From: Octopus vulgaris
Taxonomy: Eukaryota
Direction: 5' to 3'
DNA: 64,000 nt
NCBI GenBank assembly: GCA_951406725.2
Contig: OX597821.1
Coordinates: forward strand, 12,772,001-12,836,000
Both the position numbers and the translations under genes were made by a program. The notes beneath the pieces were generated by a model. The model had not been told where the DNA came from. It worked only from the letters and a program-made list of their open reading frames with translations, and searched no databases. Below, in pieces: positions 327 to 63,567 of the stretch; position 1 is the stretch's first letter, and every line of letters begins with the position of its first letter.

Positions 327-654
327 GTGAAGGTGCGTGGCTTAGTGGATAGGGCATTCGGCTCACGATTGTAAGGTCGTGAGTTCGATTCCAGGCGACG
401 CGTTGTGTCCTTGAGCAAGACACTTTATTTCATGTTGCTCCAGACCACTCAGCTGGCAAAAATGAGTTGTACCTGTATTTCAAAGGGCCGGTCTTGTCAC
501 ACTGTGTGTCACGATGAATCTCCCTGGGAACTACGTTAAGGGTACACGTGTCTGTGGAGTGCTCAGCTACTTGCACGGTAATTTCACGAGCAGGCTCTTC
601 CGTTGATCGTATCAGCTGGGACCCTCGTCGTCGTAACCGACGGAGTGCTCCTAT
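327..654 (+). mobile_element. tRNA-derived SINE family C, full length with 14-bp TSD
   Basis: Pol III A-box TGGCTTAGTGG and B-box GTTCGATTCC, body GTGTCCTTGAGCAAGACACT. Flanked by direct repeat CCTAATTAAGGGAA (313-326, 655-668). Homologous copies at 38683 and 55718. Confidence 0.9.
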
Positions 655-2535
655 CCTAATTAAGGGAATGACTACGGGACTAAGGTCCAGGTTGATAATG
701 GATCTACATGAAAACTTACACGATTTGCCATGGCGAAAATTATGCATAAACTTTCGTATGATCTCAGCAAAGAAAGTTTGAAATGAAATTGATAAGTGAA
801 AATAAAAATTCACCGCTCTGTTCAGTTTCATTTTTAAACTACTTGACCAAGAAACAGTATCGGAAAAGGACTTCTGAAAGATGGCACGTTTCATTACTAG
901 AACCTTCTACGATAGGAGGGGAAAGTGGTAGAAGTAGTAATAGTAGAGGTGGTGTTGGTGGTGGTGGTGGTAGAAGAAAATAAAGAGCAGATGTAGAAGA
1001 TGATGACTGTGACGTAGTGACAACGACCACGACCACGACGACAGCGATGACGATAATGATGATGCACAAAAACAAAAACAAAAACAAAAACAAAAACAAA
1101 AAAAAATAACACAACTGCGCCAATGTCAGATGTTCGGAAGTAGGCAGTATAACAAGCTGTTATTATGAGCCAGCTGTATAAATCATGAAATCAATCACAG
1201 ATCTCCTATAAGAAAAACAAAATTACCAAATACTGGAAGAAGGATGAAAGCAAACGTCTGCTCCGATGGGATTTGAGATTTGAGCTCATATCCAAGGGAA
1301 AAGAAACTAAATATTACCGAGCCTTTAGTATTCATTTTTTTGGCATCCATTTTCTTTTCTTATGTGTTCCTGAGTTTCTTTTGATTCGGAAATCATTTGT
1401 ATGTTCTTTTTGGGCTGTTGCATCTTTTACCGTTGTTGTTTTTGTTGTCATTATTATTGTTGTTGATGTTGTTTTTGTTGTAGTCTTGTTAGGCCTATAC
1501 ACATCAACAGTTAATCCACAATCAATCCCGGCATTCCCTCGTGTTGCACAATGGCTTGAATCAGGAATGTAACTGGTTGATTAGATTCTTCTTTCGTCTT
1601 TCTTCTTTCTTCTTTCCTCTTTCTTGCGTTGTTGTTAGTTAGTTAGTTATTGTATTTCCATGCTAGTGTTGTAATATTACTGATCCATTTCAAAAGGCTA
1701 ATAGAACTACACAAGTACACAAACACACAAACGAACACAGAATGACACACAGACAGACGTTCTCATATTAAGGTGAATTATTTGAAGTCGTGTCAAGATG
1801 CTTTGCAGCGTGTTGTTGGTGTAGTATCAATATGAAAATTTAGATTGTTCCGAGTGGAATTGCATATAAACGGATTCTTCAATTTACTCTCAGAACTACC
1901 ATTAACTACTGCTTCAACAGCAACAGTCGCAACAACAACATCAGCAATAACGAACAGTACACTAACAAGACAAAAGAGTGAATTCAATGAAACAATACCT
2001 GGATATCTTCAGAAAGTTGTGAATCTTCCTTCGTAACAAACGTTCTCTGAAGAAGTTCCAAATTCCAAGCAAGAATTGGCTTCCTTTATCTCTTATCTAC
2101 TCTACATGTGACATTCCCATTGAAGAATATGCTGGAGAGTGTGAGAGATGATATATATGTATATGTGAACGTGTGTGCATGTATGTGTCTGTGTGTTATG
2201 CTTGTGTGTGTATTTGAACATTCAAATACACATATACACATGTATATGTGATTGTATGCGTACGAGTGAGTGTATATATCTGTGTTTCTATGGATATGTA
2301 TGTGTAAAGAGGCAGAGAGAAAGAGAACAAGACACGTGCATGGTTATATATCTGTGTATATAAATGAATACATGTGTGTGTGTGTGTGCGTGTGTGTATG
2401 CAGGTGTACGTGTGGTGTATACACAACGTATATATGAAAATATATATATGTGGACATATATACTTATACACACACACACATAAATATATATATATACCTA
2501 CATATAAATATATATATGTATATGTATATATAGAA

Positions 2536-4900: not shown

Positions 4901-5284
4901 AGCTGCACGTTATGTCACAACAGACAGCGTAAATACTACTACAATGAGGGACTAAAAGAATTGAAGGAAAATATGAGCCTCGATTTGTTACCAGAAATAA
5001 AGATAACACATAAACAGCAGGAGCAACAACCATAACAGCTGGAGCACCATTCGTACGCTTAGCAGGGACTGTAGTATCTCTCATGTGTGCAACTTTGCAA
5101 TTGATGCTAGAATTGCGCAAAATTTCCCATAAGAAAATGGATATGGGTTTCCCCAACGAAGAGAACAAAGCATAAGAAACATCCGTGGACATGTATCAAT
5201 CGCACTATTCAACATATTTCGAGAACTAAAAAGAAAGAAATTAGGAAAAAGAATGCAAGATATGATGAGATATGAAAAAAATAA

Positions 5285-5706
5285 GGCGCAGGAGTGGCTG
5301 TGTGGTAAGTAGCTTGCTTACCAACCACATGGTTCCGGGTTCAGTCCCACTGCGTGGCATCTTGGGCAAATGTTATCTGCTATAGCCTCGGGCCGACCAA
5401 TGCCTTGTGAGTGGATTTCGTAGACGGAAACTGAAAGAAGCCTGTCGTATATATGTATATATATGTATGTACGTATGTGTGTGTGTTTGTGTGTCTGCGT
5501 TTGTCTCCCTAGCATTGATTGACAACCGATGCTGGTGTGTTTATATCCCCCGTCACTTAGCGGTTCGGCAAAAGAGACCGATAGAATAAGTACTGGGCTT
5601 ACAAAGAATAAGTCCCGGGGTCGGTTTGCTCGACTAAAGGCGGTGCTCCAGCATGGCCGCAGTCAAATGACTGACAGAAGTAAAAGATAAAAGAGAATAA
5701 AAGAGA
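5285..5706 (+). mobile_element. tRNA-derived SINE family A, full length
   Basis: tRNA-like head GGCGCAGGAGTGGCTGTGTGGTAAG...GGGTTCAGTCCC, internal (TA)/(TG) tract, A/G-rich tail; several homologous copies in the window. Confidence 0.92.
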
Positions 5707-8520: not shown

Positions 8521-8743
8521 GGTGGTGGTGATGGTGGCGAGGTGGCAGAGTCGTTTGCACGCCGGGCAAATTGCGTTGTTGTATCTCGTTCGTATTTACG
8601 TTCAGATTTTGAATAAAGTATCGATAAAATAAGTACCATGCGAACATTGTGTTCGACGTAATCAAGTTACAAACCTACCACGAAATTGCTGGCCGTGTGC
8701 CATTATTTGCAACCGTTACTGTCATCATTATTAGTTTCGACCA

Positions 8744-9500
8744 AGGCAGCGAGCTGGCAGAAACGTTAGCACGCAGAGCGACATGCTTAGTGGTATTTCG
8801 TCTGCCGTTACGTCCTGAGTTCAAATTCCGCCGAGGTCGACTTTGCCTTTCATGCTTTCGGGGTCGATAAATTAAGTAGCAGTTACGCACTGGGGTCGAT
8901 ATAATCGACTTAATCCGTTTGTCTGTCCTTGTTTGTCCTCTCTGTGCTTAGTCCCTTCTGGGTAGTAAAGAAATAGGTATTTCGCTTGCCGCTACGTTCA
9001 AATTCCGCTGAGGTCGACTTTGCCTTTCATCCTTTCGGGATCGATAGATTAAGTACCAGTTATGCACTGGAGTCGATGTAATCGACTTACTCCGTTTGTC
9101 TGTCCTTGTTTGTCGCCTCTGTGTTTAGCTCCTTGTGGGTAGTAAAGAAATAGGTATTTCGCTTGCCGCTACGTTCAAATTCCGTTCAGGTCGACTTTGC
9201 CTTTCATCCTTTCGGGATCGATAGATTAAGTACCAGTTATGCACTGAAGTCGATGTAATCGACTTAATCCGTTTGTCTGTCCTTGTTTGTCCCCTCTGTG
9301 TTTAGCTCCTTGTGGGTAGTAAAGAAATAGATATTCCGTCTGTCTCTATGCTCTGAGTTCAAATTACACCGAGGTCGACTTTGCCTTTCATACTTTCGGG
9401 GTCGATAAATTAAGTACAAGTACCAGTTGCGTACTGAGGTGGATGTAATAGATTGGCCGTGCCTCCCCAAAAATTTCGGACCTTGTGCCTAGAGTAAAAA
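8744..9500 (+). mobile_element. SINE family B (Deu/Nin-like central domain), one full head plus three 5'-truncated tandem units
   Basis: GTCGACTTTGCCTTTCATCCTTTCGGGGTCGATAAATTAAGTACC occurs four times about 180 bp apart; the motif resembles the Deu/Nin SINE domain. Confidence 0.88.
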
Positions 9501-16830: not shown

Positions 16831-17308
<478 letters not shown>

Positions 17309-17408: not shown

Positions 17409-20360
17409 TTAAGTCAAGTTTTGTTCAAGTAGTGAGTTCTTGTTGGGTGAGTTGTATCCAATTATGGGTGGCTTATCTGGTATTCTTTGAAGGAATCTAT
17501 CCAGACTCTGTTTAAAGTTGATGGGATCCTTTTCCTCTTTGATCTCCCTCGGGACAATGTTAAATAGGGCAGGGCCTGTTGAGGAAAAGAAATTATGTTG
17601 CAGTGTACATGTATGTTGTGATCTTGAATCAGGCAGGGGACGTATAGCCCGTGGTCCAAGTCATGGATGAACCTTGAAGCTAATGTTTAGGTCGTTTGGG
17701 CAAAGTTGGCGGTATATTTTCCACATCGTACAAATGATGTACCGCTCACGGCAACGCTGGAGGGAGTAAAGTTTCAAGGCTTTAAGGCGATCCCAATAAT
17801 CGAGAGCAGCCATGCTTTCAATTTGTTTAGTGAGTGCCCTCTGGGGTGACTCAATTCTGGAGATGTTTTGTCTTGTGTGAGGAGACCACAGTGGGCAGCA
17901 GTATTCAAGGTGTGGCCGTACAAAGGAGGAAAAAAGTGGTATGATGACACCTTGTTCTCTGGACCGGAAAGTTCTTAAGATCCAGGAACTCATCCTACGA
18001 GCTATATCGACCTTCTTGTTGATGTGTGCACTCCAACTGAGATCGTCATCAACAATTACACCCAGGTCTCTGATATTGTCAGAGGCTGTGAGCGGTTCCC
18101 CTGAAGGAAGAGAGTATGGTTGTTTTAGTGAGGAATTTCTTCCAAAATGCATCAGCTCAAATTTTCCCCTCATTCAGTTGCATTTTGTTTCTGTCTGCCC
18201 ATTGACTCACAGCATATAGATCAGACTGGAGTTGAGTTCGGTCTGCTTCTTCATTGACGATTTGCTGGAGCTTAGTGTCATCAGCAAATATTTTCACTTT
18301 GCAGTAATGTACGACACTGGAAAGGTCGTTTACGTAAATTATGAAGAGTAGCGGACCCAAAACAGTTCCCTGGGGAACACCGCTGGTGACTTTTGCTGGG
18401 TTTGAGTGGATTCCATTAACTACAACATGTTGTGTTCTATTCGCCAGGAAATACTTCATCCAGTGTAGAACTTTTCCACGGATTCCAACGTTTGCCAATT
18501 TTGAGAGTAGGATGTTATGGTCTACCCTGTCGAACGCTTTACTGAAGTCAAGATATATGACGTCAGAGTTCGAACCTGTTCCCAAGGCTTTGAGTACATC
18601 TTCAATGTGGTGTAAGAGCTGTGTTAGACAGTCCCTGCCACAGCGAAAGCCATGCTGATTTGCATTTAGGAGTTTGTGGGTCTCCAGGAAGTCAGCTATC
18701 CTTGATCTTAACACTCTTTCAAACACTTTAATGATGTGGGAGGTGAGTGAGATTGGGCGATAGTTGACTGCGAGGGATCTGTTTCCCTGTTTGAAAACCG
18801 GGATGACCGACTGGGAAAGAAACTGTTTCGGTATATATCCTGCGTCTAACGAATTACTCCAGAGGTTGGTCAGAGGGACTGCAAGTTGGTATCTACATTC
18901 CTTCAGGAGACTAGCGGGAAATCTATCAGGGCCTACAGCAGAGTAATGTTTGACCTCATTTATTGCTGCTACGATGTCGGTGGCAGTGAAGGTTATGTCT
19001 GATATTTTGTGTTGGGAGTCAACTTGGTTCGTTTTCCTTACGTCAATATCAGTGGGAACACTAAAGACAGAGCAGTATTGCTTCTGCAGTATTTCTGCCA
19101 TTTCTTTAGCATCGTGTTGGGGAATGCCGTTATCATCAATCAATGGCCCAATGGGTGAGACAGTGGTTCTATGCTTATTTGCATAAGAATAGAACACTTC
19201 TGGGTTCTGTTTGATGTTTTTGATTACCCATTGTTCCTCCACAGCTCTTTGATTTTCAATGGAGGTTTTCATGTTGGTCTGCAGATGAAGTTTTTCCAGC
19301 TCTAGTCTTTTCATTGTTGTTGAATGTGGATGTTGTGTGTGGGAATATTTTAATTGGTTGATATTTTTGTTGAGTCTTTTGATGCGCCTGATGAGTGTTT
19401 TTTTCTTTTTAGGGAGCCGGTTTCTGTTTGTGTGAGTAGATTTCTTGGGAGTGTGTTTAGAGCATGTATAGGTGACAATGTTTTCAAAGTACTGCCACGC
19501 GGACTCAATATGAGAGGAATTGAGAGTAAAAGACCAGTCGATGGAAGACAGATCCTTTCTGATTGTTCCCCAGTCCGCTTTGTGGAAGTTTATGTTGTCA
19601 AATGGGTGCCATGGAGTGGGATTGGCTGGTTTGGTTTTTATATGTCGGGAATAAAGATTGCAGTGTACCATGTCGTGGTCTGAGAGAAGAGTTTTTTCGA
19701 CTGAAATACTGTGAACGTAGCTAGGGTGATTGGTCAATACCAGATCCAAGATCGTTTTATTCTGTCTCGTTGGTTCAAGCACTAGCTGAGTCAGGAAATA
19801 CTCATCCATCAGATTAAAGAGCAGTTCTGCTGCTGCTCTATCTGATGTAGAGCACTTGCCTAACTTCAGAGTATTTGTGGGCCAGTTCACATGAGGGAGG
19901 TTAAAATCACCCATCACTAGTATGTTTCCGGAGTGGTACTTCCGAAGGAAGGACTTTAGAGGTGCCTGGGGAGGCCTGTAAAGACCAACAATGGTTATGT
20001 CCTTGGCTTTGTTGTATAGTGATACCGATTCACAGTAGCCATTGGAAAATATGTCCTTGGCATCAAGTGAAAAGGAGTCATGGATAAAGATGGCTGTCCC
20101 TCCCTTATTTCGGTCTGACCGATCCGCACGAACAATGGTGAAATATTTTATTTTCACCTCTGCGTCCATATGGGTGTTGTTCAGGTGAGTCTCGGTAAGG
20201 ATAAAGAAAGGAAGCAATGTGCCATTTCGGCAAGCCAACTCTCTATATATGGGATCTTCCATTTTTGGGCAATAATTGATGGGTTGATGCAACGTACATT
20301 TAACAGGAATGTCGAGGTAAGGGAAGTTGGTAATGGGTGAGTGGTCCTTGTGATTTGCAT
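17409..20360 (-). pseudogene. LINE ORF2: APE endonuclease + reverse transcriptase, frameshifted
   Basis: APE motifs LTETHL, GGTAIF, YRPP, MGDFN, LDLVLT, SDH; RT motifs NYRPISLTS, QHGFR, YLDFSKAFDRV, GVPQGTVLGPLLF, IFADDTKL; CR1-type tail RPHLEYCCPLWSP. Frameshifts near 20230 and 18170, TGA at 17661-17663; conserved N-terminus LNVRCINP lies in another frame with ATG at 20360. Confidence 0.93.
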
Positions 20361-21557
20361 AGATGGTTGGTGATAGCTCGCTGGATCTCCTGGCTTAGGT
20401 CGGCCTTCATATTTTCTAGGTATGTCAGTAAAAAAGAGTTACTTGTTTGGTTTGCCACTTGGTCAGAGGATACATATTTCATGTTGGCGTTATTTGGTGT
20501 TTTTTCATGGTTCTGTCTACGTTGTTTGATTGTAGGAGGGGAAACGTGGTTGTATTTTGTTCTTGTTGTTGTCCTAAATTTCCTCTGTTCCTGTTTATAT
20601 TTATTCTGTGATCGTTTTGTGCCCTTCAGATGGTGGTGGTTGCATCCTGGGTTCAGGCACATCCTTTGTAAGACAGACGTTTGGCACAGTTTAGGATGGA
20701 ATAAGGTGCAGCCATTGCCTTTTATGCATCCGTATTTAGTATCAGAACCATGGATTCTGTATTTAGGACAGTATTTGGGGTGGAGGTGGGGGCAATTTTT
20801 TCCTTTTATACCGTATGGACAGGTGCCCATAACAAGTCTACGACATAAGGTCTGATGGGAAAAAGCACAGCGTCCATTGTTGTTTGTGCCGCTGGGGCCA
20901 AATCTACAATTGCCTTTAGAATAGTAACGGCAGGGGTTTTTATTTGGTTGTAGTAGTGGTTTTTCTATTCTGGCAGTAGCAGCAGTAGTGTTAGAAGCAG
21001 TTTGTTGGTTTTGTGATGGTGGGTTCTGGCTTGCCAGGATGTGGCCAAATCTGCAGCTGCCTTGAGAGTAGTAATGGCAGATAGTTTTACGTGGATGTAG
21101 TAGTGATTTTCCTATTGTGGCAGTAGTAGTAGTAGTGGAGAGTTGTTTTTATTGTAGCAGCATTGGAACTTGACTAGTGGTAGTATTAGAGTGTTGTTGT
21201 TGTTTTTGTTGCTGTAGCGAAGGTGAAACTTGACTTGGTTCATCAGGTGCTGTTGTCAATGGAAGTAGGTCAGTTGATTGTTGCTGTTGAAGTGACCCCT
21301 GACCTGTTGGAATTTGGTCATTTGTTGTACTGGATTCGTTGGCAAGAATGGTTCTCAGTGTAGCCATGTGCGCGTGAAAAATAGGGAATATCCTAACAAT
21401 TTCTTTTATTTTACTTTCTATCTGTTTTACAGATCTGTGAAAGGATTTTTTCGTTACATCCTCTGTTATTAGCTTCGTTGTGATGGATGAACCAAGCGTT
21501 AATCATTGCAGTAATTTCATTTTCAACCCAGCGGCGTTTTTGAAAATTATTGGCCAT
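20300..21557 (-). pseudogene. LINE ORF1 with tandem CCCH zinc fingers
   Basis: Track ORFs 21149-21367 and 20300-20830 share a frame, separated only by TAA at 21149-21151; read-through gives four CCCH fingers plus one partial finger. N-terminal ATG at 21557 is in a shifted frame. Confidence 0.8.
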
Positions 21558-22976: not shown

Positions 22977-23445
22977 AATATATGTATTTATATATATTGT
23001 TAAAACAAGAAAAATGAATGAACATGCTTTGATGCAAAACAATTATGTCTATGCAGTGGTAACAGATGCTAGTTGCTGCAGTAATCATATCATAGTATAA
23101 CATACATTGTTTTATAAATAATTACGTAAATAAATATCATCTAGCAGGAACTGTACACTGGCATGTCCTCATGTGATTTGCTTTGATACCACGTTATGAC
23201 GTCATTAGACAGGTAATATTGAATACATAGTCATGCATCCACGCACACACCCATACATACGCGCATGCGCACATGCACAAACACACATATATAAAGGAGA
23301 TATTATCGTTTATAATACCAGTCGCTTAGTATGCTTAATAAAACCACAACGGTAAAAAATTATCAATTAATAATAAAGGGTACTAACAAACAGTACCGTC
23401 ATGCTAATTATAGCAGTAAACATGACCGAACCACCTATTTTCTCT

Positions 23446-23878
23446 CAAACACAAAGGGGAAAGCGGGCAACTGAATAAAATTCCAAAACTCCGGACCAGT
23501 GACGAAGATTAAAGAAACCAGACAAACCCGTACAAACGTGATTTCGAACTTTGAGAAACACTCTTATTTCATCTTTAGCGACTCCAGAGCTATAGACTTT
23601 ATTCATCTCACCAATTTGTACGCTTATTGTTTTTAATGCCAAGGCGAATTTTAGAATGCTGCTGCATTAAAAACGTTGAGGGTATCCATTGGTGAAATGA
23701 ATAATCGCTGTAACCCTAGGGTCAGTAAGACTCGCTGAAGACGAAGTAAGAGGTTTTCTCAAAGTTCGAAATCACAGTGACAGGGGTATGTCTGGCTTTT
23801 TCAATTTTCGATCATTTTGGCCAGTGTTTCGGGATTTTAGGATTTTTATTCATTTGGCTGCTTTTACCTTTGAGTTTA
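23446..23878. repeat. Diverged inverted repeat (~140-bp arms) with hammerhead-like motif
   Basis: GTGATTTCGAACTTTGAGAAA..CTCTTA at 23538 is the reverse complement of 23745-23775; right arm has CTGAAGA...GAAA-TCAC A GTGA. Confidence 0.75.
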
Positions 23879-23949
23879 AGTGAAAATTTGTGATTTGGTC
23901 ATTTTGACTGCTATATTTAGCATGCCGGTACTGCTTGTCAGTAACCTAA

Positions 23950-23988
<39 letters not shown>

Positions 23989-24021: not shown

Positions 24022-24061
<40 letters not shown>

Positions 24062-24063
<2 letters not shown>

Positions 24064-24450
24064 TTTACTTGTTTCAGTCATTTGACTGCGGCCATGCTGG
24101 AGCACCGCCTTAAATCGAGCAACTCGACCCCGGGACTTATTCTTTTGTAAGCCCAGTACTTATTCTATCGGTCTCTTTTCCCGAACCGCTAAGTAACGGG
24201 GACATAAACACACCAGCATCGGTTGTCAAGCTAGGGAGACAAACACACTCACACAAACACGCACACGCATATATATATATACATATATACGACGGGCTTC
24301 TTTCAGTTTCCGTCTACCAAATCCACTCACAAGGCTTTGGTCGGCCCGAGGCTATAGTAGAAGACACTTGCCCAAGGTGCTACGCAGTGGGACTGAACCC
24401 GGAACCATGTGGCTGGTAAACAAGCTACTTACCACACAGCCACTCCTGCG

Positions 24451-24453
<3 letters not shown>
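24062..24453 (-). mobile_element. tRNA-derived SINE family A, full length, in (TA)n
   Basis: Reverse complement of the 5285-5706 copy. Confidence 0.92.
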
Positions 24454-24511
<58 letters not shown>

Positions 24512-33295: not shown

Positions 33296-33897
33296 TATTT
33301 CTTTACTGCCCACAAGGGGCTAAACACAGAGGGGACAAACAAGGACAGACAAACGGATTAAGTCGATTACATCGACCCCGGTGCGTAACTGGTACTTAAT
33401 TTAACGACACCGAAAGGATGAAAGGCAAAGTCGACCTCGGTGGAATTTGAACTCAGAACGTAACGGCAGATAAAATACCTATTTCTTTACTACCCTCAAG
33501 GGGCTAAACAACACAGAGAGGACAAACAAGGACAGACAAACAGATTAAGTCGAATATATCGATCCTTGTGTGTAACTGGTACTTATTTCATCGATCGCGA
33601 AAGGATGAAAGGCAAAGTCGACCTCGGCGGAATTTGAAGTCAGAATGTAGCGGCAGATGAATTACCTATTTCTTTACTACCCACAAGGGGCTAAACACAG
33701 AGGGGACAAACAAGGACAGACAAATGGATAAAGTAGATTGCATCGACCCCAGTGCGCAACTGGTACTTAATTTATCGACCCCGAAGGATGAAAGTCAAAG
33801 TCGACCTCGGCGAAATTTGAACCCAGAACGTAACGTCAGACGAAATACGGCTACGCATTTCGCCCGGCGTGCTAACGTTTCTGCCAGCTCGACGCCT
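33296..33897 (-). mobile_element. SINE family B, one head plus two truncated tandem units
   Basis: Three copies of AAGGATGAAAG.CAAAGTCGACCTCGG about 180 bp apart; head next to (AAT)n. Confidence 0.88.
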
Positions 33898-33900
33898 TAC

Positions 33901-38213: not shown

Positions 38214-38682
38214 TTCATTTCTTTCCAGTCATTTTCTGCTTTTGTTTTGTTCTAATCAAGTGGGTAGTTATATATTCTTCCTATATACCCCAAACAATGT
38301 ACGAAATTTACCGCATTTCAGACCCAGCCTGATGACCAAACACAGGATATTCGAAAAACCATAACTACCATATGTTGGTGTGGCTCAGTATTCAAATATA
38401 ACTGGACACCACGGCAGAGCATGCAATAATAAGAACGATGCGGAAACGTCGGCTGGGAACAATGCATAATAAATGTTTCTTGTGTCTATCTTAATTCCTT
38501 CTACATTATCTCTGTATATTTAAACTATTAATGCTCCTAAGGACTATAACAATCACAAACCATCACACTGGCTGTAGACAGATTAGTGATACTCTTAACT
38601 GAAGCCCTAAACATACCAGTAGGAATCGTAAATCTAACGACCAGGACATGATACAGCATATATATATATATAAGTGATGAAA

Positions 38683-38994
38683 GGAGCACTCCGTCGGTTA
38701 CGACGACGAGAGTCTCAGCTGATACGATCAACGGAACAGCTTGATCGAAAGATTAACGTGCAAATGGGTGAGTATTCCACAGACACGTGTACCCTTACCG
38801 TAGTTCGCAAGGAGATTCAGCGTGACACAGAGTGTGACAAGGCTGGTCCTTTGAAATACAGGTACAACTCATTTTTGCCAGCTGAACGGACTGGAGCAAC
38901 GTGAAATAAAGTGACACAACGCGTCGCCGGGAATCGAACTCACAACCTTATGATCGTGAGCGAGCCGAATGCCCTAACCACTAAGCCACGCGCC
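38683..38994 (-). mobile_element. tRNA-derived SINE family C
   Basis: Reverse complement of 332-650. Confidence 0.9.
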
Positions 38995-39004
38995 CTCTAT
39001 ATAT

Positions 39005-39083
<79 letters not shown>

Positions 39084-39476
39084 TACATATATACATATAT
39101 ATATAGGTTATAAAATGAGATAGGGGTTGAAAATTCAACCCACCATGGGATAATATATATCCAATATACTGCTAGATAGGTACCCAACAAAAATTAATAC
39201 ATAGATGTTAAAAATTGTCAAGCAATCAGTTCATCTATTGTATTAAATGGGTAAAGGTAATAATATTACCGTAAATTAATACTACAAAATTAGAGAATGG
39301 AGAAACATACTTAAATCAATAAAACATCAACTATCCGATGATACTCAATCCATACTTTAATACACCATTACATAGGAGTAAAGGCAATATATAAAATGAA
39401 ATGAGATATACAGTAATAGTAAAAGTAAAAAGATAAAGAGATATAAGTAAAAAATTACAAATATAATATGCAAATA

Positions 39477-39600
39477 AATCAAAACTGACAGCTGTTTCGG
39501 CAGTGAGGACAGTCATACCTCATTTAACCTATAAGCCATAAAGGCAGGTATAAATGAGGCATTAACAAAGATGCCCCACGGCCTCTTCAGAGAATTAAAT
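39477..39600 (-). ncRNA. Type-I hammerhead ribozyme in the PLE 3' UTR (sense copy)
   Basis: Minus strand CTGAAGA-GGC...GCC-GAAA-C AGCT G-TC-AG; mirror of 47291-47414. Confidence 0.75.
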
Positions 39601-39934
39601 TAAATTTGTTATAATAGTGAAAAATATTATATAATCATATACATATAAATATAAAAATATAAAAAAGTAAAATATAAAAACTTATACATCATAATGCTAC
39701 ACTTGTATAATATAATACACATTTGTACAAAAAGGAAGGTAACCAGAACAAAATAAAACAAAATATATAACAGTGTATATATAATATTAATAAGTACCGA
39801 TATCATACATATTTAGCTAATAGTTTTTTTTATAAAAAAAAGGGCTAACACATATGGAGATGAAAAATAATAATAATTAAATCCGTGGTACAGTTCATAA
39901 AATTCTAAAGCTATAAAAGTTAATAAAAATTACT

Positions 39935-39971
<37 letters not shown>

Positions 39972-41702
39972 GTAATAATAATAAAAAAAATACTAAAAAT
40001 AGATACAGTTAAGTTATCACCAAGTCCATCCTTCCAAGATCGAAATAACTATGAGTTAAGAAATGCTGACCACTAGGTAAAGAAAATTTAGATTAATTCG
40101 ATTGGCTATTGGTTTGAAATTTAAATCACAAAAGAAAATTATACGGTTGGTTAGTCAAGGAACGCCAATATTCACACACGCATCTACAGATCAATCGCAC
40201 ATACACACATAGTTATATGTATATACATACACTTGTACATATACATAATCATAAGCAACAACTAACACTTAGATAAACAAATAGGGAAGCAACCATGCTA
40301 ACACTAAGTCCTTCAAAATTATAACTGAGCCTCAATAACAAAAAAAGAACCATCCATGCATTCTATAAAATATTTAATTAAGATATAAATGTATTTTTAA
40401 ATATCAGTATGTTACTAATTCAGATAATTATTTCATGGGTAACTTAAAATTTATAACACCGGTTTGTTGCAGAGTAAACATACGGTTGTTAGGTTTATCG
40501 TAAGTTTGTTATGATTTAAAGTACGCTAAATTATAAAATATAAAATATAAAATATATTAATTTAGATATTATAAATAAGTCACTTATTAACTTAATAAAT
40601 ATAGTGCCAAAATATACCAGTTTAGGCAATAAAAAATAGAGGGGGAAGTATTAATGTAAACGCTTATGAGAACATCACAGAAATTTTAAATAAATTTTAT
40701 ATTATAAAGACTTAATATGAAAAGAGATAAAATAAATAAAAAGGAATAAATACGAAGGAATAAATACGGTTATACACATAATTATAAGTACAAACTAGTA
40801 TATATGTATTCATATATTATTAAAATAAATAAAAATAAATGATAGATATGTATGTATAAAACTACACCAGTATAAGTAAATAAGTAAAGAATAAATAGGT
40901 AACAAATTAGATGACTTGATATGTATGTAAACATCCACACTTAAATAGGCAAATAAATAAATAAATAGAAGACTAGATGCAAATATTGATAATATTACAA
41001 TAAAATGGGAAATAAATAAAAATAAATAAAGTGAATATATATATTTTATATTGTTGAAAGTAAATATGTATGGAAGGATAGTTTAAAGTACAGATCCAGA
41101 GGACTATAGATATAAACTAAATATATGAGGCTGGTAACAATTATAAAGCAAAATGCATGTAAATGAGAAAATGAAAAAAATGAAAAAGGTTTATCAGTGA
41201 ATAGCATAAGATACAAATTAAGGTGAGTACAAAAAGACCAAATATATAATAAAAACCTTCCAAATCAGCACATACAAAAAACCCATAATCTCAACCTAAA
41301 CCCACCAAACTCACAAAAGGCTCTCATATATTACATATTATACAATATCATTACATTATCCAGAGCTAGGTATCTAACCAAGATATACATATATACTTTG
41401 CAATATACTATGCAATATTGGAAAACTTCAAAAATCACACATTACAAGGCAAATACCAAAATGAATATGTTATTTTATGTCATATTGCATTTCTCTTAAA
41501 AAAAAACAAACAAAAACCCACATACAAAAACCAAGAAACCAATAATACTAGACACATCCAATTAGTTATTATACAAATGTAGCTATAAAAATTATAAAAT
41601 TATGAAATTTATAAATTGTATACTTTAGAATTATAGAAGACCACAGGTATATTTAGTTAAAGAAGGGAATTAAAAAATTGATAATAGTGGAAGTGCTAAG
41701 TT

Positions 41703-43037
41703 CTATTTGAATCTAGAAAAGGTGAACGGTAGCCTATGAATACAAAAGAAGTTTTTCTCATTAATGTTGTTAATAATTTGCCGACCCGCTTTAATAATGA
41801 AGAAAATTTCATTAATACATAGAGAGCATTTTTTATTTTTTCCATTATACACAGGTGCTGAAGTTAGTATTTTCCAGTTTAATCTAAAATCTAAGTTCTT
41901 ACTTTTAAGTTCCCAAATATATGCACTTAGCCCTGTAGAGTACATTCTATTTTTATTCCTAAAAGTATATCTATGATAATTCCATCTTTGTTTTATGCTA
42001 TTCATAGTTGCCCCGATATACACTCTACTACTCAATTGTGTATCTACAGTGCATTGGTAAACTACCTCCTTCCTGAGGCATTGATTACCAAATACACATT
42101 TATTTTTATTTCTGCAATTACAAAGATTAACAGAATGAGGAAATCTAAGATTGGACACCACCCCTATACTACTATTCACATTATAAGTGTTACAATTGTT
42201 ATCATCATCCAAACCCAAAATCAACGAATGAGTTAATTTCACATTATCGGCTATATTCCTATCACTAGTACTAGTATTGGTAGTAGTGGTATGATCTATT
42301 ACATTTATATTATCTCTGACAGGTATGGTGCACTCATTATTAGTAAGGAGGTTGCTCCCATTTGTTCCAAGAAAATTTCTATTCCTATTATTAATGAAGA
42401 GGGGCAAGTTTTCCTGGTCTAAATTCAATTTTCTATCCTTATAGAAGTGATCCAGTTTCTTGTTATTAAAAGAGGAGATGATGGTGGCTAGATTATGAGT
42501 AATGCTATATCCCACTCTAACAGTACCGTTGTTAATTAAAGGACTAAATTTATTCCTATCCTTACCAAAATGCCTAAAAATAATATTATGCAAAGCTCTC
42601 ACTATGTTTGTTTTAATCTGCATTGCATACGGGATAATCAACCAAAGAGTATCCTTATCAGAATTAGGATTGCCTATAGAATTAATGTTATTTGTAAAAA
42701 TCCTATTCGTAGACCAACTCATAGGATTACTATTCTTACCACTGTCATTGTTATGTCTATCTATATCAATATTACCATGGTTATTGCGCAAGTAAACTTT
42801 ACCATTATCATGTCTACCATAAGTTTTAATTCGTATATTATTATTAATATTACTACTACTACTCGTATGTTTAGATCTATTTGAGCTACCGTTCACCTTT
42901 CCAAGGTTAACGTCACTTCTACATTTATTATAGGTGTTATCATATATTCTGTTTTTACTATTCTTATGTATATTGTTGATTATCCTAAATCTATTTGTGT
43001 TGTTCTTGATAGTTCTACCTCCATTAGGGGGTTCCCC
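41703..43037 (-). CDS. PLE polyprotein C-terminal part: linker/thumb + GIY-YIG endonuclease with Cys motifs (frame opens at 43037)
   Basis: LWLIIPYAMQIKTNI...HF...NTVRVGYS-like segment, CNCRNKNKCVFGNQC, VVYQC...YIGAT...KQRWNYH, STGLSAYIWELK, WKIL, CSLCINE, CIHR: the Naiad-type arrangement. Confidence 0.88.
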   Translation of the reverse strand, partial: GEPPNGGRTIKNNTNRFRIINNIHKNSKNRIYDNTYNKCRSDVNLGKVNGSSNRSKHTSSSSNINNNIRIKTYGRHDNGKVYLRNNHGNIDIDRHNNDSGKNSNPMSWSTNRIFTNNINSIGNPNSDKDTLWLIIPYAMQIKTNIVRALHNIIFRHFGKDRNKFSPLINNGTVRVGYSITHNLATIISSFNNKKLDHFYKDRKLNLDQENLPLFINNRNRNFLGTNGSNLLTNNECTIPVRDNINVIDHTTTTNTSTSDRNIADNVKLTHSLILGLDDDNNCNTYNVNSSIGVVSNLRFPHSVNLCNCRNKNKCVFGNQCLRKEVVYQCTVDTQLSSRVYIGATMNSIKQRWNYHRYTFRNKNRMYSTGLSAYIWELKSKNLDFRLNWKILTSAPVYNGKNKKCSLCINEIFFIIKAGRQIINNINEKNFFCIHRLPFTFSRFK

Positions 43038-44545
43038 TTAGGTATAAACCAAATCTTACTTTTATATCCTGCCTTAAGTAATGCTGCATTGTATCTATCA
43101 CAGTGTTTGTTAAAAATTTCCTCGTTTGAGGATAAACTAGAAATTCTTTGACTAATGCTACGCACTAGTGCATTTTTAATTTGAGGGGGGTGATTACTAG
43201 AACGGTTAATGTATATTAGGTTAGAATTAGGTTTAATATAGGGTTCATGTAAACCATTAGTAATGTTACAATTAACATCTAAATAATTAGCAGAATAATT
43301 TTCACTTTCAATGATAATGGATAGGCCGAAGCTTTTAAAAAATTTGTTTATTCTTTTTTTCAGAAGATCTAATCTCCTATTTGATGTATTCCTAACACAA
43401 AATAAGGCGTCATCCCTGTATAATCCGCCTTTTAATTCAGGGAATTCCCTACTAAAGTTATCTAATAGATACATCCCAACTAGATCAGTCACCTCCGCTG
43501 AGTCCGGCGATCCCATTGTGATATCGAACAAGTTGGGTGTGTCCTTTCTAGCCCAAAGTTTATTATCAAACTCTATTAAAGTTTTCCTGGCTGTTAGTAT
43601 AACCTTAATCTCCCCCATACTTAATTTAGTGTGTTTTCTAGCAAAAATTAAGGACTTATTTAATATAATAGGGTTAATTGAAGTGTAATAATTCTGTATA
43701 TCGAATTGTATAAATTTATTTCTATTATAGCTAAAGTTGTTACTGTCACAGACCTTAATGGCAGAAAACCAATCCAAAGCACCCTGAGTATTCTTCCAAA
43801 GGTTTAGTTTGATTTTATTGCGGATGGTGGGTAGATATTTATCTAGAATGAGTTTACTTAGTCTGCCTAAGTCAGATTTAGTGGGGCAAATTAATCTGAC
43901 CTGTGTGTTTCCAAGAAAATTCTCTTTATGATCCTTTAGTGTAATTCTCGGTCTGGATGGGGTGTAGGGTTCCGTTTTTTCTTCTAGGTAGTAGTCAAAT
44001 ATGATTTCTCTGATCTCCAGGTTCAGCTTTCTAAGTGTACTAGAAGGTACTACTTTGTATTTCTTGGTTATTTCCTTGTGTAGAAGATCATGATATGCAG
44101 TAATGTCAATGTTGTAGATGTTGTTAGTTTTGTCAGAATGTGTTAGAATGCCACTCTTACCTTTGAGAGTTCTAATTAAGTCTTTCAATTCTCTTTGGTG
44201 CGGGTTATATCTTAAAGGATGATTTCTAAATTTTATGTTTTTTACAGTCTCCCATAGTTCTTGTTCAAAATTGTCTAGATGTATATTTGGTGGAGGAGAC
44301 TTTCTAGATTTAAATGTAGTGCTTGTTAGTTTTAATATTTCTTCATAGGTGCTTCCAATTCCATTACGGATCGTTTCTCCAGTGTGTTGTTGGTTTATTT
44401 TATTATTATAGTTCTCATGGTGGAAAATCCTCCATCTGATCCTATGGATGAATTCATTCATTCTATAAATTAGTTCTTTAGTGTAATGGTCTTTGGTAGG
44501 GATAGGTACATCCTTCATTGATGAATTGATCAGTATTTTCTCCAT
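42980..44545 (-). CDS. PLE polyprotein N-terminal part: reverse transcriptase (first ATG 44545)
   Basis: SMKDVPIP..Y...LI...F..RIRWR, SDKT, ITLKDHKENF, RLICPTKSDLG, FIQFDIQNYYTSI, FDITMGSPDSAEV, GGLYRDDAL, NYLDV, YI...SNHPP. Confidence 0.92.
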   Translation of the reverse strand: MEKILINSSMKDVPIPTKDHYTKELIYRMNEFIHRIRWRIFHHENYNNKINQQHTGETIRNGIGSTYEEILKLTSTTFKSRKSPPPNIHLDNFEQELWETVKNIKFRNHPLRYNPHQRELKDLIRTLKGKSGILTHSDKTNNIYNIDITAYHDLLHKEITKKYKVVPSSTLRKLNLEIREIIFDYYLEEKTEPYTPSRPRITLKDHKENFLGNTQVRLICPTKSDLGRLSKLILDKYLPTIRNKIKLNLWKNTQGALDWFSAIKVCDSNNFSYNRNKFIQFDIQNYYTSINPIILNKSLIFARKHTKLSMGEIKVILTARKTLIEFDNKLWARKDTPNLFDITMGSPDSAEVTDLVGMYLLDNFSREFPELKGGLYRDDALFCVRNTSNRRLDLLKKRINKFFKSFGLSIIIESENYSANYLDVNCNITNGLHEPYIKPNSNLIYINRSSNHPPQIKNALVRSISQRISSLSSNEEIFNKHCDRYNAALLKAGYKSKIWFIPKGNPLMEVELSRTTQIDLG

Positions 44546-44630
44546 TCTTCTAGCAGTAATGATCAAAGGAACAAATATACTACACTAGGGTGTATTCACA
44601 TGCACTATTAATATTTAAATCAATAAATGG

Positions 44631-45179
44631 ATGCTTATATTACACCAGTATGAGCAATTGGGTTTGGATGATGATAACAATTGTAACACTTATAATGTGA
44701 ATAGTAGTATAGGGGTGGTGTCCAATCTTAGATTTCCTCATTCTGTTAATCTTTGTAATTGCAGAAATAAAAATAAATGTGTATTTGGTAATCAATGCCT
44801 CAGGAAGGAGGTAGTTTACCAATGCACTGTAGATACACAATTGAGTAGTAGGGTGTATATCGGGGCAACTATGAATAGCATAAAACAAAGATGGAATTAT
44901 CACAGATATACTTTTAGGAATAAAAATAGAATGTACTCTACAGGGCTAAGTGCATACATTTGGGAACTTAAAAGTAAGAACTTAGATTTTAGATTAAACT
45001 GGAAAATACTAACTTCAGCACCTGTGTATAATGGAAAAAATAAAAAATGCTCTCTATGTATTAATGAAATTTTCTTCATTATTAAAGCGGGTCGGCAAAT
45101 TATTAACAACATTAATGAGAAAACTTCTTTTGTATTCATAGGCTACCGTTCACCTTTTCTAGATTCAAATAGAACTTAG
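44631..45179 (+). CDS. Inverted duplicate of the GIY-YIG domain with junction-derived ATG and C-terminal frameshift
   Basis: Protein identical to the minus-strand EN from LGLDDDNN to NINEK; one A fewer in the run at ~45120 removes CIHR. Confidence 0.55.
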   Translation: MLILHQYEQLGLDDDNNCNTYNVNSSIGVVSNLRFPHSVNLCNCRNKNKCVFGNQCLRKEVVYQCTVDTQLSSRVYIGATMNSIKQRWNYHRYTFRNKNRMYSTGLSAYIWELKSKNLDFRLNWKILTSAPVYNGKNKKCSLCINEIFFIIKAGRQIINNINEKTSFVFIGYRSPFLDSNRT

Positions 45180-46924
45180 CACTTCCACTATTATTAATTT
45201 TTTAATTCCCTTCTTTAACTAAATATACCTGTGGTCTTCTATAATTCTAAAGTATACAATTTATAAATTTCATAATTTTATAATTTTTATAGCTACATTT
45301 GTATAATAACTAATTGGATGTGTCTAGTATTATTGGTTTCTTGGTTTTTGTATGTGGGTTTTTGTTTGTTTTTTTTAAGAGAAATGCAATATGACATAAA
45401 ATAACATATTCATTTTGGTATTTGCCTTGTAATGTGTGATTTTTGAAGTTTTCCAATATTGCATAGTATATTGCAAAGTATATATGTATATCTTGGTTAG
45501 ATACCTAGCTCTGGATAATGTAATGATATTGTATAATATGTAATATATGAGAGCCTTTTGTGAGTTTGGTGGGTTTAGGTTGAGATTATGGGTTTTTTGT
45601 ATGTGCTGATTTGGAAGGTTTTTATTATATATTTGGTCTTTTTGTACTCACCTTAATTTGTATCTTATGCTATTCACTGATAAACCTTTTTCATTTTTTT
45701 CATTTTCTCATTTACATGCATTTTGCTTTATAATTGTTACCAGCCTCATATATTTAGTTTATATCTATAGTCCTCTGGATCTGTACTTTAAACTATCCTT
45801 CCATACATATTTACTTTCAACAATATAAAATATATATATTCACTTTATTTATTTTTATTTATTTCCCATTTTATTGTAATATTATCAATATTTGCATCTA
45901 GTCTTCTATTTATTTATTTATTTGCCTATTTAAGTGTGGATGTTTACATACATATCAAGTCATTTAATTTGTTACCTATTTATTCTTTACTTATTTACTT
46001 ATACTGGTGTAGTTTTATACATACATATCTATCATTTATTTTTATTTATTTTAATAATATATGAATACATATATACTAGTTTGTACTTATAATTATGTGT
46101 ATAACCGTATTTATTCCTTCGTATTTATTCCTTTTTATTTATTTTATCTCTTTTCATATTAAGTCTTTATAATATAAAATTTATTTAAAATTTCTGTGAT
46201 GTTCTCATAAGCGTTTACATTAATACTTCCCCCTCTATTTTTTATTGCCTAAACTGGTATATTTTGGCACTATATTTATTAAGTTAATAAGTGACTTATT
46301 TATAATATCTAAATTAATATATTTTATATTTTATATTTTATAATTTAGCGTACTTTAAATCATAACAAACTTACGATAAACCTAACAACCGTATGTTTAC
46401 TCTGCAACAAACCGGTGTTATAAATTTTAAGTTACCCATGAAATAATTATCTGAATTAGTAACATACTGATATTTAAAAATACATTTATATCTTAATTAA
46501 ATATTTTATAGAATGCATGGATGGTTCTTTTTTTGTTATTGAGGCTCAGTTATAATTTTGAAGGACTTAGTGTTAGCATGGTTGCTTCCCTATTTGTTTA
46601 TCTAAGTGTTAGTTGTTGCTTATGATTATGTATATGTACAAGTGTATGTATATACATATAACTATGTGTGTATGTGCGATTGATCTGTAGATGCGTGTGT
46701 GAATATTGGCGTTCCCTGACTAACCAACCGTATAATTTTCTTTTGTGATTTAAATTTCAAACCAATAGCCAATCGAATTAATCTAAATTTTCTTTACCTA
46801 GTGGTCAGCATTTCTTAACTCATAGTTATTTCGATCTTGGAAGGATGGACTTGGTGATAACTTAACTGTATCTATTTTTATTATTTTTTATTATTATTAA
46901 TTCTTCTTCTTCTTCTTCTTCTTC

Positions 46925-46956
<32 letters not shown>

Positions 46957-47290
46957 AGTAATTTTTATTAACTTTTATAGCTTTAGAATTTTATGAACTG
47001 TACCACGGATTTAATTATTATTATTTTTCATCTCCATATGTGTTAGCCCTTTTTTTTATAAAAAAAACTATTAGCTAAATATGTATGATATCGGTACTTA
47101 TTAATATTATATATACACTGTTATATATTTTGTTTTATTTTGTTCTGGTTACCTTCCTTTTTGTACAAATATGTATTATATTATACAAGTGTAGCATTAT
47201 GATGTATAAGTTTTTATATTTTACTTTTTTATATTTTTATATTTATATGTATATGATTATATAATATTTTTCACTATTATAACAAATTTA

Positions 47291-47414
47291 ATTTAATTCT
47301 CTGAAGAGGCCGTGGGGCATCTTTGTTAATGCCTCATTTATACCTGCCTTTATGGCTTATAGGTTAAATGAGGTATGACTGTCCTCACTGCCGAAACAGC
47401 TGTCAGTTTTGATT
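47291..47414 (+). ncRNA. Type-I hammerhead ribozyme in the inverted arm
   Basis: CTGAAGA 47301-47307, long stem II, GAAA 47393-47396, palindromic stem III CAGCTG, GTC triplet 47402-47404, weak stem I. Confidence 0.75.
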
Positions 47415-47647
47415 TATTTGCATATTGTATTTGTAATTTTTTACTTATATCTCTTTATCTTTTTACTTTTACTATTACTGTATATCTCATTTCATTTTAT
47501 ATATTGCCTTTACTCATATGTAATGGTGTATTAAAGTATGGATTGAGTATCATCGGATAGTTGATGTTTTACTGATTTAAGTATGTTTCTCCATTCTCTA
47601 ATTTTGTACATATATATATACATATATATATATATATACACACATAT

Positions 47648-47903
<256 letters not shown>

Positions 47904-62269: not shown

Positions 62270-62989
62270 TATAAAATTAAATAAGGGTAGATATTAATCA
62301 ATTAAAACCAACGGCTTAGCATATTTTAAAAAATCCGAAGATTAAAAGTTGTGTTACATACAAAATTTAGAAGACTGACAACTAAAGTGGACAGCCTATA
62401 TGCTAAAGACAGACGTCAAATCGCCATTACCACGAAGAATGTGTTCTGAAGAAAAATCTCAGCAAAAAAACAAAATGTAAAAATAAGCAAGACAAATAAA
62501 AATATACGAAATAAAAACAAGGATTACCTATGTACCATTGGTTTCACTCGTTAATATTTACGCATATGAACACGCAAATATCTGCAAGACCGTGAGCATA
62601 GCCTGTCGTTTACAAAACATAATTTCCAGAACTAGATACAGAACACCAAAGTGAAGGCATTTGAAAGATACACCTAAATACAATTTGTAGAACATTATAC
62701 ATATTGGATTTGGGTTGAGCGTTCTGTAAGTAGTTCTGGAAATTATGTTTTGTAAACGACAGACTATGCTGACGATCTTGCAGATATTTGCGTCTCCATA
62801 TAGTTAAATGTTAACAGGTGAAACCAATGGTACATAGGTAAACGTATTTTCTTATTTCGTATATTTTCATTTGTCTTGCTTATTTTTACATTTTGGTCTT
62901 TTGGTGAGAATTTTCTTCGTGGTAACCGCGATTTGACGTCTATGTTTATCATATAGGCTGTCCACTTTAGCGGTCAGTTCTCTAAATTT

Positions 62990-62993
<4 letters not shown>
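62270..62993. mobile_element. Head-to-head inverted element (arms 62359-62634 and 62731-62993) with hammerhead motifs, in (TA)n
   Basis: Arms are diverged reverse complements around a ~95-bp spacer; (TA)n on both sides. Confidence 0.8.
62764..62837 (+). ncRNA. Type-I hammerhead ribozyme motif
   Basis: CTATG-CTGACGA-stem II-GAAA-CCA A TGG-TA-CATAG: perfect 5-bp stem I, palindromic stem III, GTA triplet; first stem II pair is T.T. Confidence 0.72.
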
Positions 62994-63044
<51 letters not shown>

Positions 63045-63090
63045 CAATAATAAATCTCTGAACGAGATGTAAACAGTAACCGCTCGACAA

Positions 63091-63223
63091 CGTAAAGTAT
63101 ACTAGCCATCTCAATATGGCTAACCATTAAGGGTGGCAGTTACTGTACGACTCCTGGGGCTAAAAGCTACAGTAACACCCACCCTTAGTGGTTAGCCATG
63201 TTGAGATGGTTAGTATACTTTAC
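63091..63223. repeat. Inverted repeat of a Helitron-internal segment
   Basis: CGTAAAGTATACTAGCCATCTCAATATGGCTAACCA / TGGTTAGCCATGTTGAGATGGTTAGTATACTTTACG; same sequence at 54843-54903. Confidence 0.8.
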
Positions 63224-63227
63224 GTTA

Positions 63228-63303
<76 letters not shown>

Positions 63304-63567
63304 TACATGCATGTGTGTGGAGTTATAATAAAAATGCAGTGAATATCTTCTTTCATGAAATTACTCTCCATCTATGTATTATATTTGTATGCAAACAACT
63401 ATATTGATGTAATTCTGATTGGAAATATTTTGCAGAAAGGCGTCTCAATATTTAAGAAATGATATTATCGATGTAAATATAATTTTTGTGCTTGGTGGTA
63501 AGACAGAGATTTATTTCGCTGGCATTGAGAAAGAATAATGAGACTGGTATCCGTTTCTCTCCATTTT

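What the first reader, a model, noticed from the sequence alone, without database searches (positions are those of the whole stretch)
39107..47608. Naiad-type PLE forming an 8.3-kb fold-back with 2.9-kb arms
Seen: the EN domain plus most of an unusually long (~2.6 kb) AT-rich 3' UTR is duplicated in inverted orientation upstream of the RT start. Arms 39283-42218 and 44658-47608 differ only by scattered transitions, homopolymer lengths and an (AAT)n partly replaced by (CTT)n. Established: PLE insertions often carry tandem or inverted pseudo-LTRs. Inference: read-through transcription would form a multi-kb dsRNA stem, a strong ADAR or small-RNA substrate, with a sense HHR near the 3' end in either direction.
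Basis: partly seen in the sequence, partly recalled or inferred. Interest (0 to 1): 0.75.

Follow-up and report, generated by a model that had tools for sequence, protein, structure and literature searches.

The report
Twin-primed Hydra retroelement fold-back insertion
This 8.5-kb mirror-image insertion is an ordinary product of a young Penelope-type jumping gene (Hydra group, not Naiad); across its relatives the two outer ends always differ by the same 172-base piece, which likely means that both DNA strands at the target are primed on one RNA at two fixed points.

Summary
The inverted repeat is in the assembly as described (arms 39283-42218 and 44658-47608, 98.9% alike). The element is not a Naiad: its endonuclease is C-terminal, it carries a hammerhead core, and its motifs match the Hydra clade. 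It is an oversized Hydra (5.58-kb unit, 960-codon frame, 2.6-kb 3' UTR) inserted in (TA)n. The fold-back is common: 37 of 67 insertions examined are head-to-head, some larger (15.4 kb). All 37 have one end at site A and the other at site B, 172 nt further on; none is A/A or B/B. That sharpens the published 'tail at one end' and fits twin priming on one RNA at two fixed start sites (inferred). This scan noted twin priming before on another repeat of this genome (e1-8672319). The window's frameshift looks like a homopolymer error, and all 10 arm substitutions outside the microsatellite are family polymorphisms, so they do not date the insertion. No short-read contig bridged this junction in 4 runs. 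Read-through transcription, dsRNA and editing at this locus were not shown.

The parts
39107..47608 (.). Whole head-to-head insertion of a Hydra-clade Penelope-like element (8502 bp)
39004..39106 (.). (TA)n/(CA)n microsatellite, left target flank
   Evidence: sequence
39107..44657 (-). Long arm ending at site B: nearly one whole unit (about 25 of the 27 bp that precede it in tandem copies, and the upstream pLTR, are absent)
39107..39278 (-). 172-nt 'tail' between family end sites A (39279) and B (39107); present in this arm only; predicted chain of 4-5 hairpins
   Evidence: fold z -4.24, 0 of 200 shuffles; no compensatory pair in 8 copies
39107..41702 (-). 3' UTR / pLTR-forming region, 2596 bp, AT-rich
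39487..39590 (-). Minimal type I hammerhead-like motif: core boxes intact, 84-nt extended stem II, palindromic stem III, weak stem I; predicted cut after 39487
   Evidence: no Rfam hammerhead match
39918..40012 (-). (AAT)n/(TTA)n microsatellite inside the UTR (approximate limits)
41706..42122 (-). C-terminal GIY-YIG-type endonuclease with CxCx5C linker, no CCHH, CxxC and CxH
42158..42443 (-). Asn-rich insert 2 (about 95 aa) before the EN (approximate limits)
   Evidence: alignment with 9 homologues
42683..43027 (-). Asn-rich insert 1 (about 110 aa) after the RT thumb (approximate limits)
   Evidence: alignment with 9 homologues
43027..43031 (-). Homopolymer run at which the assembled frame shifts; likely a consensus error
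42980..44584 (-). RT part of the frame (RWR, DKT, YRDD; first Met at 44545)
44657..44659 (.). Inversion junction with 2-nt microhomology (44658-44659)
44658..47608 (+). Short arm ending at site A: 5'-truncated copy (EN with a 1-nt deletion, UTR, no tail)
47301..47404 (+). Second copy of the hammerhead-like motif
47609..47899 (.). (TA)n microsatellite, right target flank
   Evidence: sequence

Best explanation
The feature is one insertion of a young Hydra-clade Penelope-like retrotransposon into a (TA)n tract, and its head-to-head shape was likely made by twin priming: both nicked target strands would start reverse transcription on one tandem RNA, one at site A and one at site B, 172 nt apart. 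Shown here: clade motifs, 5.58-kb unit, (TA)n targets, two fixed ends, one A plus one B end in 37 of 37 resolved head-to-head insertions, variable inner breakpoints with short or no microhomology, and arms of one insertion usually closer to each other than to other loci. From the literature: a related PLE protein nicks and extends both strands and starts at two RNA sites that bracket the tail. Inferred: that the two primings are coupled on one RNA (probably by a dimer bound to the structured tail), that the two cDNAs are joined at their truncated ends, and that one-armed insertions arise when one cDNA is very short or lost. The fold-back is a by-product; dsRNA would form only if a flanking promoter reads through it, which was not shown.
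For: Hydra motifs. End rule: of 67 loci, 37 A+B, 21 A with a plain 5' end, 5 B with a plain 5' end, 4 unresolved, 0 A/A, 0 B/B; independent choice of sites would give at most 0.5^37 = 7e-12. L047, one of the 4, is also A+B. Arms that do not overlap or barely overlap (L091 5410-5551 / 4939-5377; L046; L095) are hard to get from one cDNA copying itself. Either end type can sit on the long arm (L015 versus L016). Arms share a haplotype: 0 differences in 2775 (L021) and 4249 (L034) shared bases against medians of 45 and 84 to other loci. 5 of 38 junctions have both breakpoints within 16 nt, 0.45 expected, p 5e-5, as if both polymerases ran off one template end. Ends merge into TA by 0-3 shared bases. 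In vitro precedent: PMC11167929. Intact 960-codon frame in L038 and an extra base at 43026 at full depth in both RNA? runs.
Against: No biochemistry on this element. PMC11167929 saw no difference in start site between the two strands, so coupling is not shown there. Arm identity could also come from gene conversion or assembly homogenisation, and near-symmetric breakpoints also fit hairpin self-priming (PMC3846280). In the window itself the arms differ at 10 family-polymorphic sites in a mosaic pattern, which one template does not explain without polishing errors or later conversion; L024, L025, L033, L081 differ by 8-18. A helix joining sites A and B was not supported (13-14 of 100 shuffles reach it). 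This junction was not bridged in 4 DNA? runs. Samples are the top-scoring 40 of 749 and of 1024 candidates, and two-armed insertions had two chances to enter the second sample.
Confidence: 0.72

Rival explanations
1. Self-priming and resolution: one nucleic acid strand folds back at a microhomology, is copied into a long hairpin, and the endonuclease then cuts the two arms at staggered sites A and B and joins them to (TA)n.
For: Proposed for head-to-head Penelope copies in PMC3846280 (passages); PMC8557442 ascribes the tail to EN-mediated resolution. Explains shared haplotypes and the 5 of 38 near-symmetric junctions.
Against: Most breakpoints are hundreds to thousands of bases apart and 3 insertions have arms with little or no overlap. 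A 172-nt stagger is long for one nicking complex (inference). In vitro, the tail limits are RT start sites (PMC11167929).
Confidence: 0.13
2. Twin priming on two separate RNA molecules, each protomer of an asymmetric dimer being fixed to site A or site B.
For: Gives the A+B rule equally well. The window's arms differ only at family-polymorphic sites.
Against: In the informative loci both arms fall in the same subfamily and are usually nearer each other than any other locus. The window's differences are scattered single sites in both arms, not two haplotypes.
Confidence: 0.08
3. This locus is an assembly artefact (fold-back read or two copies joined by mistake).
For: No bridging contig in 4 of 4 DNA? 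runs. The assembly has homopolymer and probably polishing errors in this family. The (CTT)n tract is unique to the right arm.
Against: The arms end at different family-specific sites and have unrelated outer flanks; a fold-back read would mirror the flank too. 36 other loci show the same layout with different breakpoints. A young insertion can be missing in other individuals.
Confidence: 0.05
4. The fold-back is a selected source of dsRNA (ADAR or small-RNA trigger) for host control of the family.
For: 2.9-kb arms at 98.9% would pair if transcribed. One contig of depth 3.1 in run X2 (guessed RNA) has 15 differences over 42931-43100, and X2's listed changes are 11 A>G of 14 on the antisense strand; two of them are absent from 70 genomic segments.
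Against: No host exon found among 71 filtered frames in 104 kb; no upstream pLTR; no hyperedited genomic copy in 88 loci; that contig lies outside this locus's arms and its junction is not in the assembly; more than half of sampled insertions have this shape, so no selection is needed.
Confidence: 0.02

Closest known systems
Hydra clade of C-terminal EN+ PLEs, including Hydra-1_Obim (Craig et al. 2021, PMC8557442; abstract, sections 3, 11, 15, passages and supplement parts read)
   Same: RT then C-terminal GIY-YIG EN; RW[K/R], DKT, CxCx5C, no CCHH, CxxC/CxH; no insertion-in-fingers; hammerhead near the 3' end; (TA)n target; partial tandems and inverted 5'-truncated copies (one listed for Penelope-13_HM).
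   Different: Unit 5.58 kb against 1.1-3.0 kb listed for the clade (Hydra-1_Obim 2507 bp); 960-codon frame with two Asn-rich inserts; 2.6-kb 3' UTR; tail 172 nt against 30-40; hammerhead with an 84-nt stem II and weak stem I.
Poseidon_Ac (PAc) of the green anole, in vitro (Frangieh et al. 2024, PMC11167929; main text read, parts 1-2 of 4)
   Same: Two RT start sites bracket the genomic tail; both strands nicked and extended; AT-rich target; predicted dimer.
   Different: Other clade; the start sites lie inside the ORF and close together; no strand difference reported and no pairing rule or account of the inversion given. Here the sites lie upstream of the next unit's ORF, 172 nt apart, and are strictly paired.
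Adineta vaga Penelope families (Arkhipova et al. 2013, PMC3846280; passages read)
   Same: [quoted passage not shown]
   Different: 31-bp tail, about 200-bp pLTRs; head-to-head layout explained there by self-priming on an antisense template.
LINE-1 twin priming
   Same: Both target strands prime on one RNA; an inversion with short microhomology results.
   Different: L1's first primer uses the poly(A) end and the second a variable internal site; here both sites are fixed and the arms usually overlap for kilobases.
Naiad clade (PMC8557442)
   Same: PLE, (TA)n target, tandem and inverted layouts.
   Different: N-terminal EN, DKA, insertion-in-fingers, CCHH, no canonical hammerhead: all differ here.

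Membership tests
Naiad | EN N-terminal to RT | tested here: not met
   EN is C-terminal in the natural 960-codon frame of L038 and in the window
Naiad | DKG motif changed to DKA | tested here: not met
   DKT
Naiad | Insertion-in-fingers between RT3 and RT4 | tested here: not met
   RT3-RT4 spacing matches Hydra-1_Obim by eye
Naiad | No canonical hammerhead | tested here: not met
   Hammerhead core boxes present, same form in 96 of 121 matches
Hydra | Single ORF, RT then C-terminal GIY-YIG EN | tested here: met
   Unbroken frames in L038, L033, L047, L046; window copy shifted at a homopolymer
Hydra | RWK-type motif and DKT | tested here: met
   RWR and DKT
Hydra | CxCx5C linker; CCHH absent; CxxC and CxH around the conserved E and N | tested here: met
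   against the definition
Hydra | Hammerhead near the 3' end | tested here: met
   Core and palindromic stem III present; stem I weak; no Rfam hit; cleavage untested
Hydra | (TA)n insertion preference | tested here: met
   TA-rich flanks at nearly all resolved ends (L040's A end is an exception)
Hydra | Generally short (<3 kb), a tendency and not a diagnostic | tested here: not met
   5.58-kb unit
Hydra | RT groups with Hydra in a phylogeny | not tested
   No labelled reference proteins could be brought into a tree; unlabelled top hits share the Hydra motifs
Neptune / Nematis / Penelope-Poseidon | CCHH zinc finger with two Cys between GIY and YIG; DKG | tested here: not met
PLE tail-bearing insertion | Tail at one end of an inverted insertion | tested here: met
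   37 of 37; length 172 nt, not 30-40

The most novel reading that the evidence does not exclude
A PLE RT-EN dimer clamps a 172-nt multi-hairpin RNA element and obligatorily primes the two target strands at its two edges on a single RNA. Head-to-head fold-backs of up to 15 kb are then the default product of Penelope-type integration, which would explain the inverted pLTR, the one-sided tail and a steady supply of long dsRNA substrates in one mechanism.
Probability: 0.45. Interest if true: 0.65.

Novelty: new variant of a known kind. Interest (0 to 1): 0.42.

Why it matters
How PLEs make their tandem and inverted ends is named as an open problem in PMC8557442 (section 15). This family is young, has unbroken frames, and its two start sites are 172 nt apart, so every insertion can be scored without doubt. 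The strict one-A-one-B rule is a sharp prediction for the in vitro system of PMC11167929. It also warns that such fold-backs are routine, and that homopolymer frameshifts and arm differences in this assembly should not be read as biology. The single locus is of little interest by itself.

Tried and rejected
Programmed frameshift between RT and EN: rejected as unlikely. The run varies among assembled segments (C5 32, C4 8, interrupted 7, C6 4 of 51), a second C6 run is short in 21 of 44 segments, yet short-read contigs list no deletion at either run and carry the extra base at full depth in X1 and X2; in X17 the two contigs with an added base sum to the depth at 43052. X19 showed it at only 5.59 of 3406 depth, which I could not resolve. 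Dating by arm divergence: rejected, 10 of 10 substitutions are at family-polymorphic sites. Helix joining sites A and B: seen only because the (TA)n flank was included; not above shuffles in natural context. Covariation in the tail: 0 of 55 pairs compensatory in 8 close copies. Rfam: no ribozyme match. Pfam: no family for the PLE frames. Junction support: none in X19, X18, X14, X11; a hole proves nothing. Expression: no RNA holder listed on record. Hyperedited genomic copies: none among 272 segments of 88 loci. Locus with the X2 contig's junction: 0 matches. Host gene nearby: 0 Pfam hits in 71 filtered frames of 55 codons or more over 104 kb; short exons would be missed. RT tree with labelled clades: not made; a recalled Pfam accession was not in the library. 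One search translated the wrong strand; one search is a bacterial promoter scan and does not apply. In one search rows L011, L101 and L042 were mis-parsed, so I give no microhomology or arm-length tally from it.
Full report
Observation. The window holds one long inverted repeat, 39283-42218 against 47608-44658, 98.9% identical over 2953 columns. The arms differ by 10 substitutions outside the microsatellite (9 transitions, 1 transversion), two 1-nt homopolymer indels and changes in the (AAT)n tract, including a (CTT)n stretch on the right. The element reads on the minus strand: an RT frame at 44584-42980, an EN-bearing frame at 43037-41703, then 2596 bp of 3' UTR to 39107. The right arm is a 5'-truncated copy from just before the EN. 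Both outer ends abut (TA)n. The inner junction shares 2 nt. The left arm runs 176 bp beyond the right.

Clade. Pfam gave nothing for the PLE frames. A natural copy elsewhere (L038) has an unbroken 960-codon frame with RWR, DKT, YRDD, CxCx5C, a GIY-YIG-type EN without CCHH, and CxxC/CxH at the end. That is the Hydra diagnosis in PMC8557442 section 11 and matches Hydra-1_Obim by eye. A search of 1.84 billion representatives gave 314 proteins at E <= 1e-30; most of the 35 long hits among the best 150 show the same motifs. Against 9 of them the protein has two Asn-rich inserts of about 110 and 95 aa; such inserts are described for rotifer Penelopes (PMC3846280, passages). The unit is 5551 + 27 = 5578 bp; published Hydra consensuses are 1080-3045 bp. 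No tree with labelled clades was made.

Family and layouts. A search with the RT region returned 41 matches from the best 40 of 749 candidates; a search with the 3' UTR returned 41 from 40 of 1024. I fetched 39 loci from the first and 27 from the second, and extended cut-off ones. With the window that makes 67. The 3' ends fall at two sites, A (unit position about 5379) and B (about 5551), both merging into TA. Of 67 loci, 37 are head-to-head with both ends resolved, and all 37 have one A and one B; 21 are one-armed ending at A, 5 one-armed ending at B, and 4 unresolved (two with N runs, one cut by my fetch, one dropped by an identity filter and A+B). In the 3'-selected sample 16 of 27 are resolved fold-backs, though two-armed loci had two chances to be picked. 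The window's arms are not the longest: L024, L025 and L034 share about 3.9-4.6 kb and L011 spans 15.4 kb.

Mechanism. Independent choice of end site would give A+B in all 37 with probability at most 7e-12, so the ends are coupled. Inner breakpoints vary over the whole unit; in L091, L046 and L095 the arms overlap little or not at all, which points to two separate primings. Arms of one insertion are usually closer to each other than to other loci, for example 0 differences in 2775 and 4249 bases. In 5 of 38 junctions both breakpoints lie within 16 nt (0.45 expected, p 5e-5; three of the 76 values estimated by hand). PMC11167929 (main text read) shows that a Poseidon protein nicks and extends both strands and starts at two RNA sites that bracket the tail; it reports no strand difference and does not treat the inversion. 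I infer twin priming on one RNA, with the two cDNAs joined at their truncated ends. The tail folds better than all 200 shuffles (z -4.24) but shows no compensatory change in 8 close copies, and a helix joining A to B was not supported. The older self-priming model and EN-mediated resolution remain as rivals. 'Tail at one end' is published. I did not find the strict pairing or twin priming for PLEs in searches (listings only, apart from the papers named); figures were not seen. This scan recorded two fixed start points and twin priming for another repeat in this genome (e1-8672319), which I did not test.

Errors in the assembly. The window's frame shifts at a G5 run (43027-43031). Among assembled segments this run is C5 in 32, C4 in 8, interrupted in 7 and C6 in 4; a second C6 run is short in 21 of 44. 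Short-read contigs list no deletion at either run, and carry an extra base at 43026 at full depth in X1 and X2; in X17 the two contigs with an added base account for the depth at 43052; X19 shows it at only 5.59 of 3406. A consensus error is the likely cause. All 10 arm substitutions are at sites polymorphic in the family, scattered as older-subfamily alleles over both arms. That fits polishing noise or conversion, so the 1% divergence is not an age. No contig bridged the junction in 4 DNA? runs from 4 samples. An artefact at this locus is still unlikely, since the arms stop at different family sites and have unrelated flanks.

Hammerhead and dsRNA. Each arm has a minimal type I core with an 84-nt stem II, a palindromic stem III and a weak stem I, in one form in 96 of 121 matches; Rfam does not detect it. 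In a fold-back transcript it would be paired with its antisense copy and probably silent (inference). This copy lacks the upstream pLTR, and no host exon was detected nearby. No run is on record as RNA. One depth-3.1 contig of X2 has 15 differences over 42931-43100, and X2's changes are mostly A>G on the antisense strand; two of these sites are invariant in 70 genomic segments. That lies outside this locus's arms, has no matched DNA, and its junction is not in the assembly: a hint for the family only. No hyperedited copy was seen among 88 loci.

Verdict. The variant features (size, 172-nt tail, Asn-rich inserts) and the 37 of 37 end rule give a clean test of PLE integration. Interest 0.42. Papers: PMC8557442 (abstract, sections 3, 11, 15, passages, supplement part 2 and passages); PMC11167929 (parts 1-2 of 4); PMC3846280 (passages); 10.64898/2026.07.22.740005 (part 1 of 5, not used for a claim); L1 twin priming is recalled.

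Noticed in passing
window 17412-21502 (minus): LINE-type element: frame with CCCH zinc-finger hits (20300-21148) ahead of an AP-endonuclease/RT frame (18157-20394) that continues in another frame.
   Followed up: partly
window 42885-42900 and 41718-41733: Exact 16-bp inverted repeat between Asn-rich insert 1 and the end of the EN (E 0.006 in a self-search); possible long-range RNA pairing or relic of an old inversion.
   Followed up: no
L093+L011 (G000:C7:51216420-51231835): 15.4-kb head-to-head insertion with a whole unit in each arm and a partly duplicated tail at the B end.
   Followed up: partly
run X2, contig on window 42931-43100: Depth-3.1 contig with 15 differences, in a run whose changes are mostly A>G on the antisense strand, ending in 10 letters that match the tail; possible hyperedited transcript of another fold-back copy.
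   Followed up: partly
window 62359-62993, 62994-63309 and 23353-23971: Shorter self-inverted stretches (73-80% identity); not examined, may be simple repeats or older inverted insertions.
   Followed up: no
window 8743-9421 and 33296-33898: About 180-bp tandem repeat in two arrays of opposite orientation, about 86% alike.
   Followed up: no
window 335-655 / 38679-38991; 5281-5689 / 16885-17237 / 24059-24509: Two dispersed SINE-like repeat families next to (TA)n.
   Followed up: no
L094, L103: One-armed A insertions whose 5' junction carries a few bases of an inverted B end, as expected if the second cDNA was very short.
   Followed up: partly
L014, L028: Copies that run into N stretches inside the element.
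   Followed up: no
L035 (joined with L115): Internal short inversion (unit 2161-2346) between two tandem pieces.
   Followed up: no
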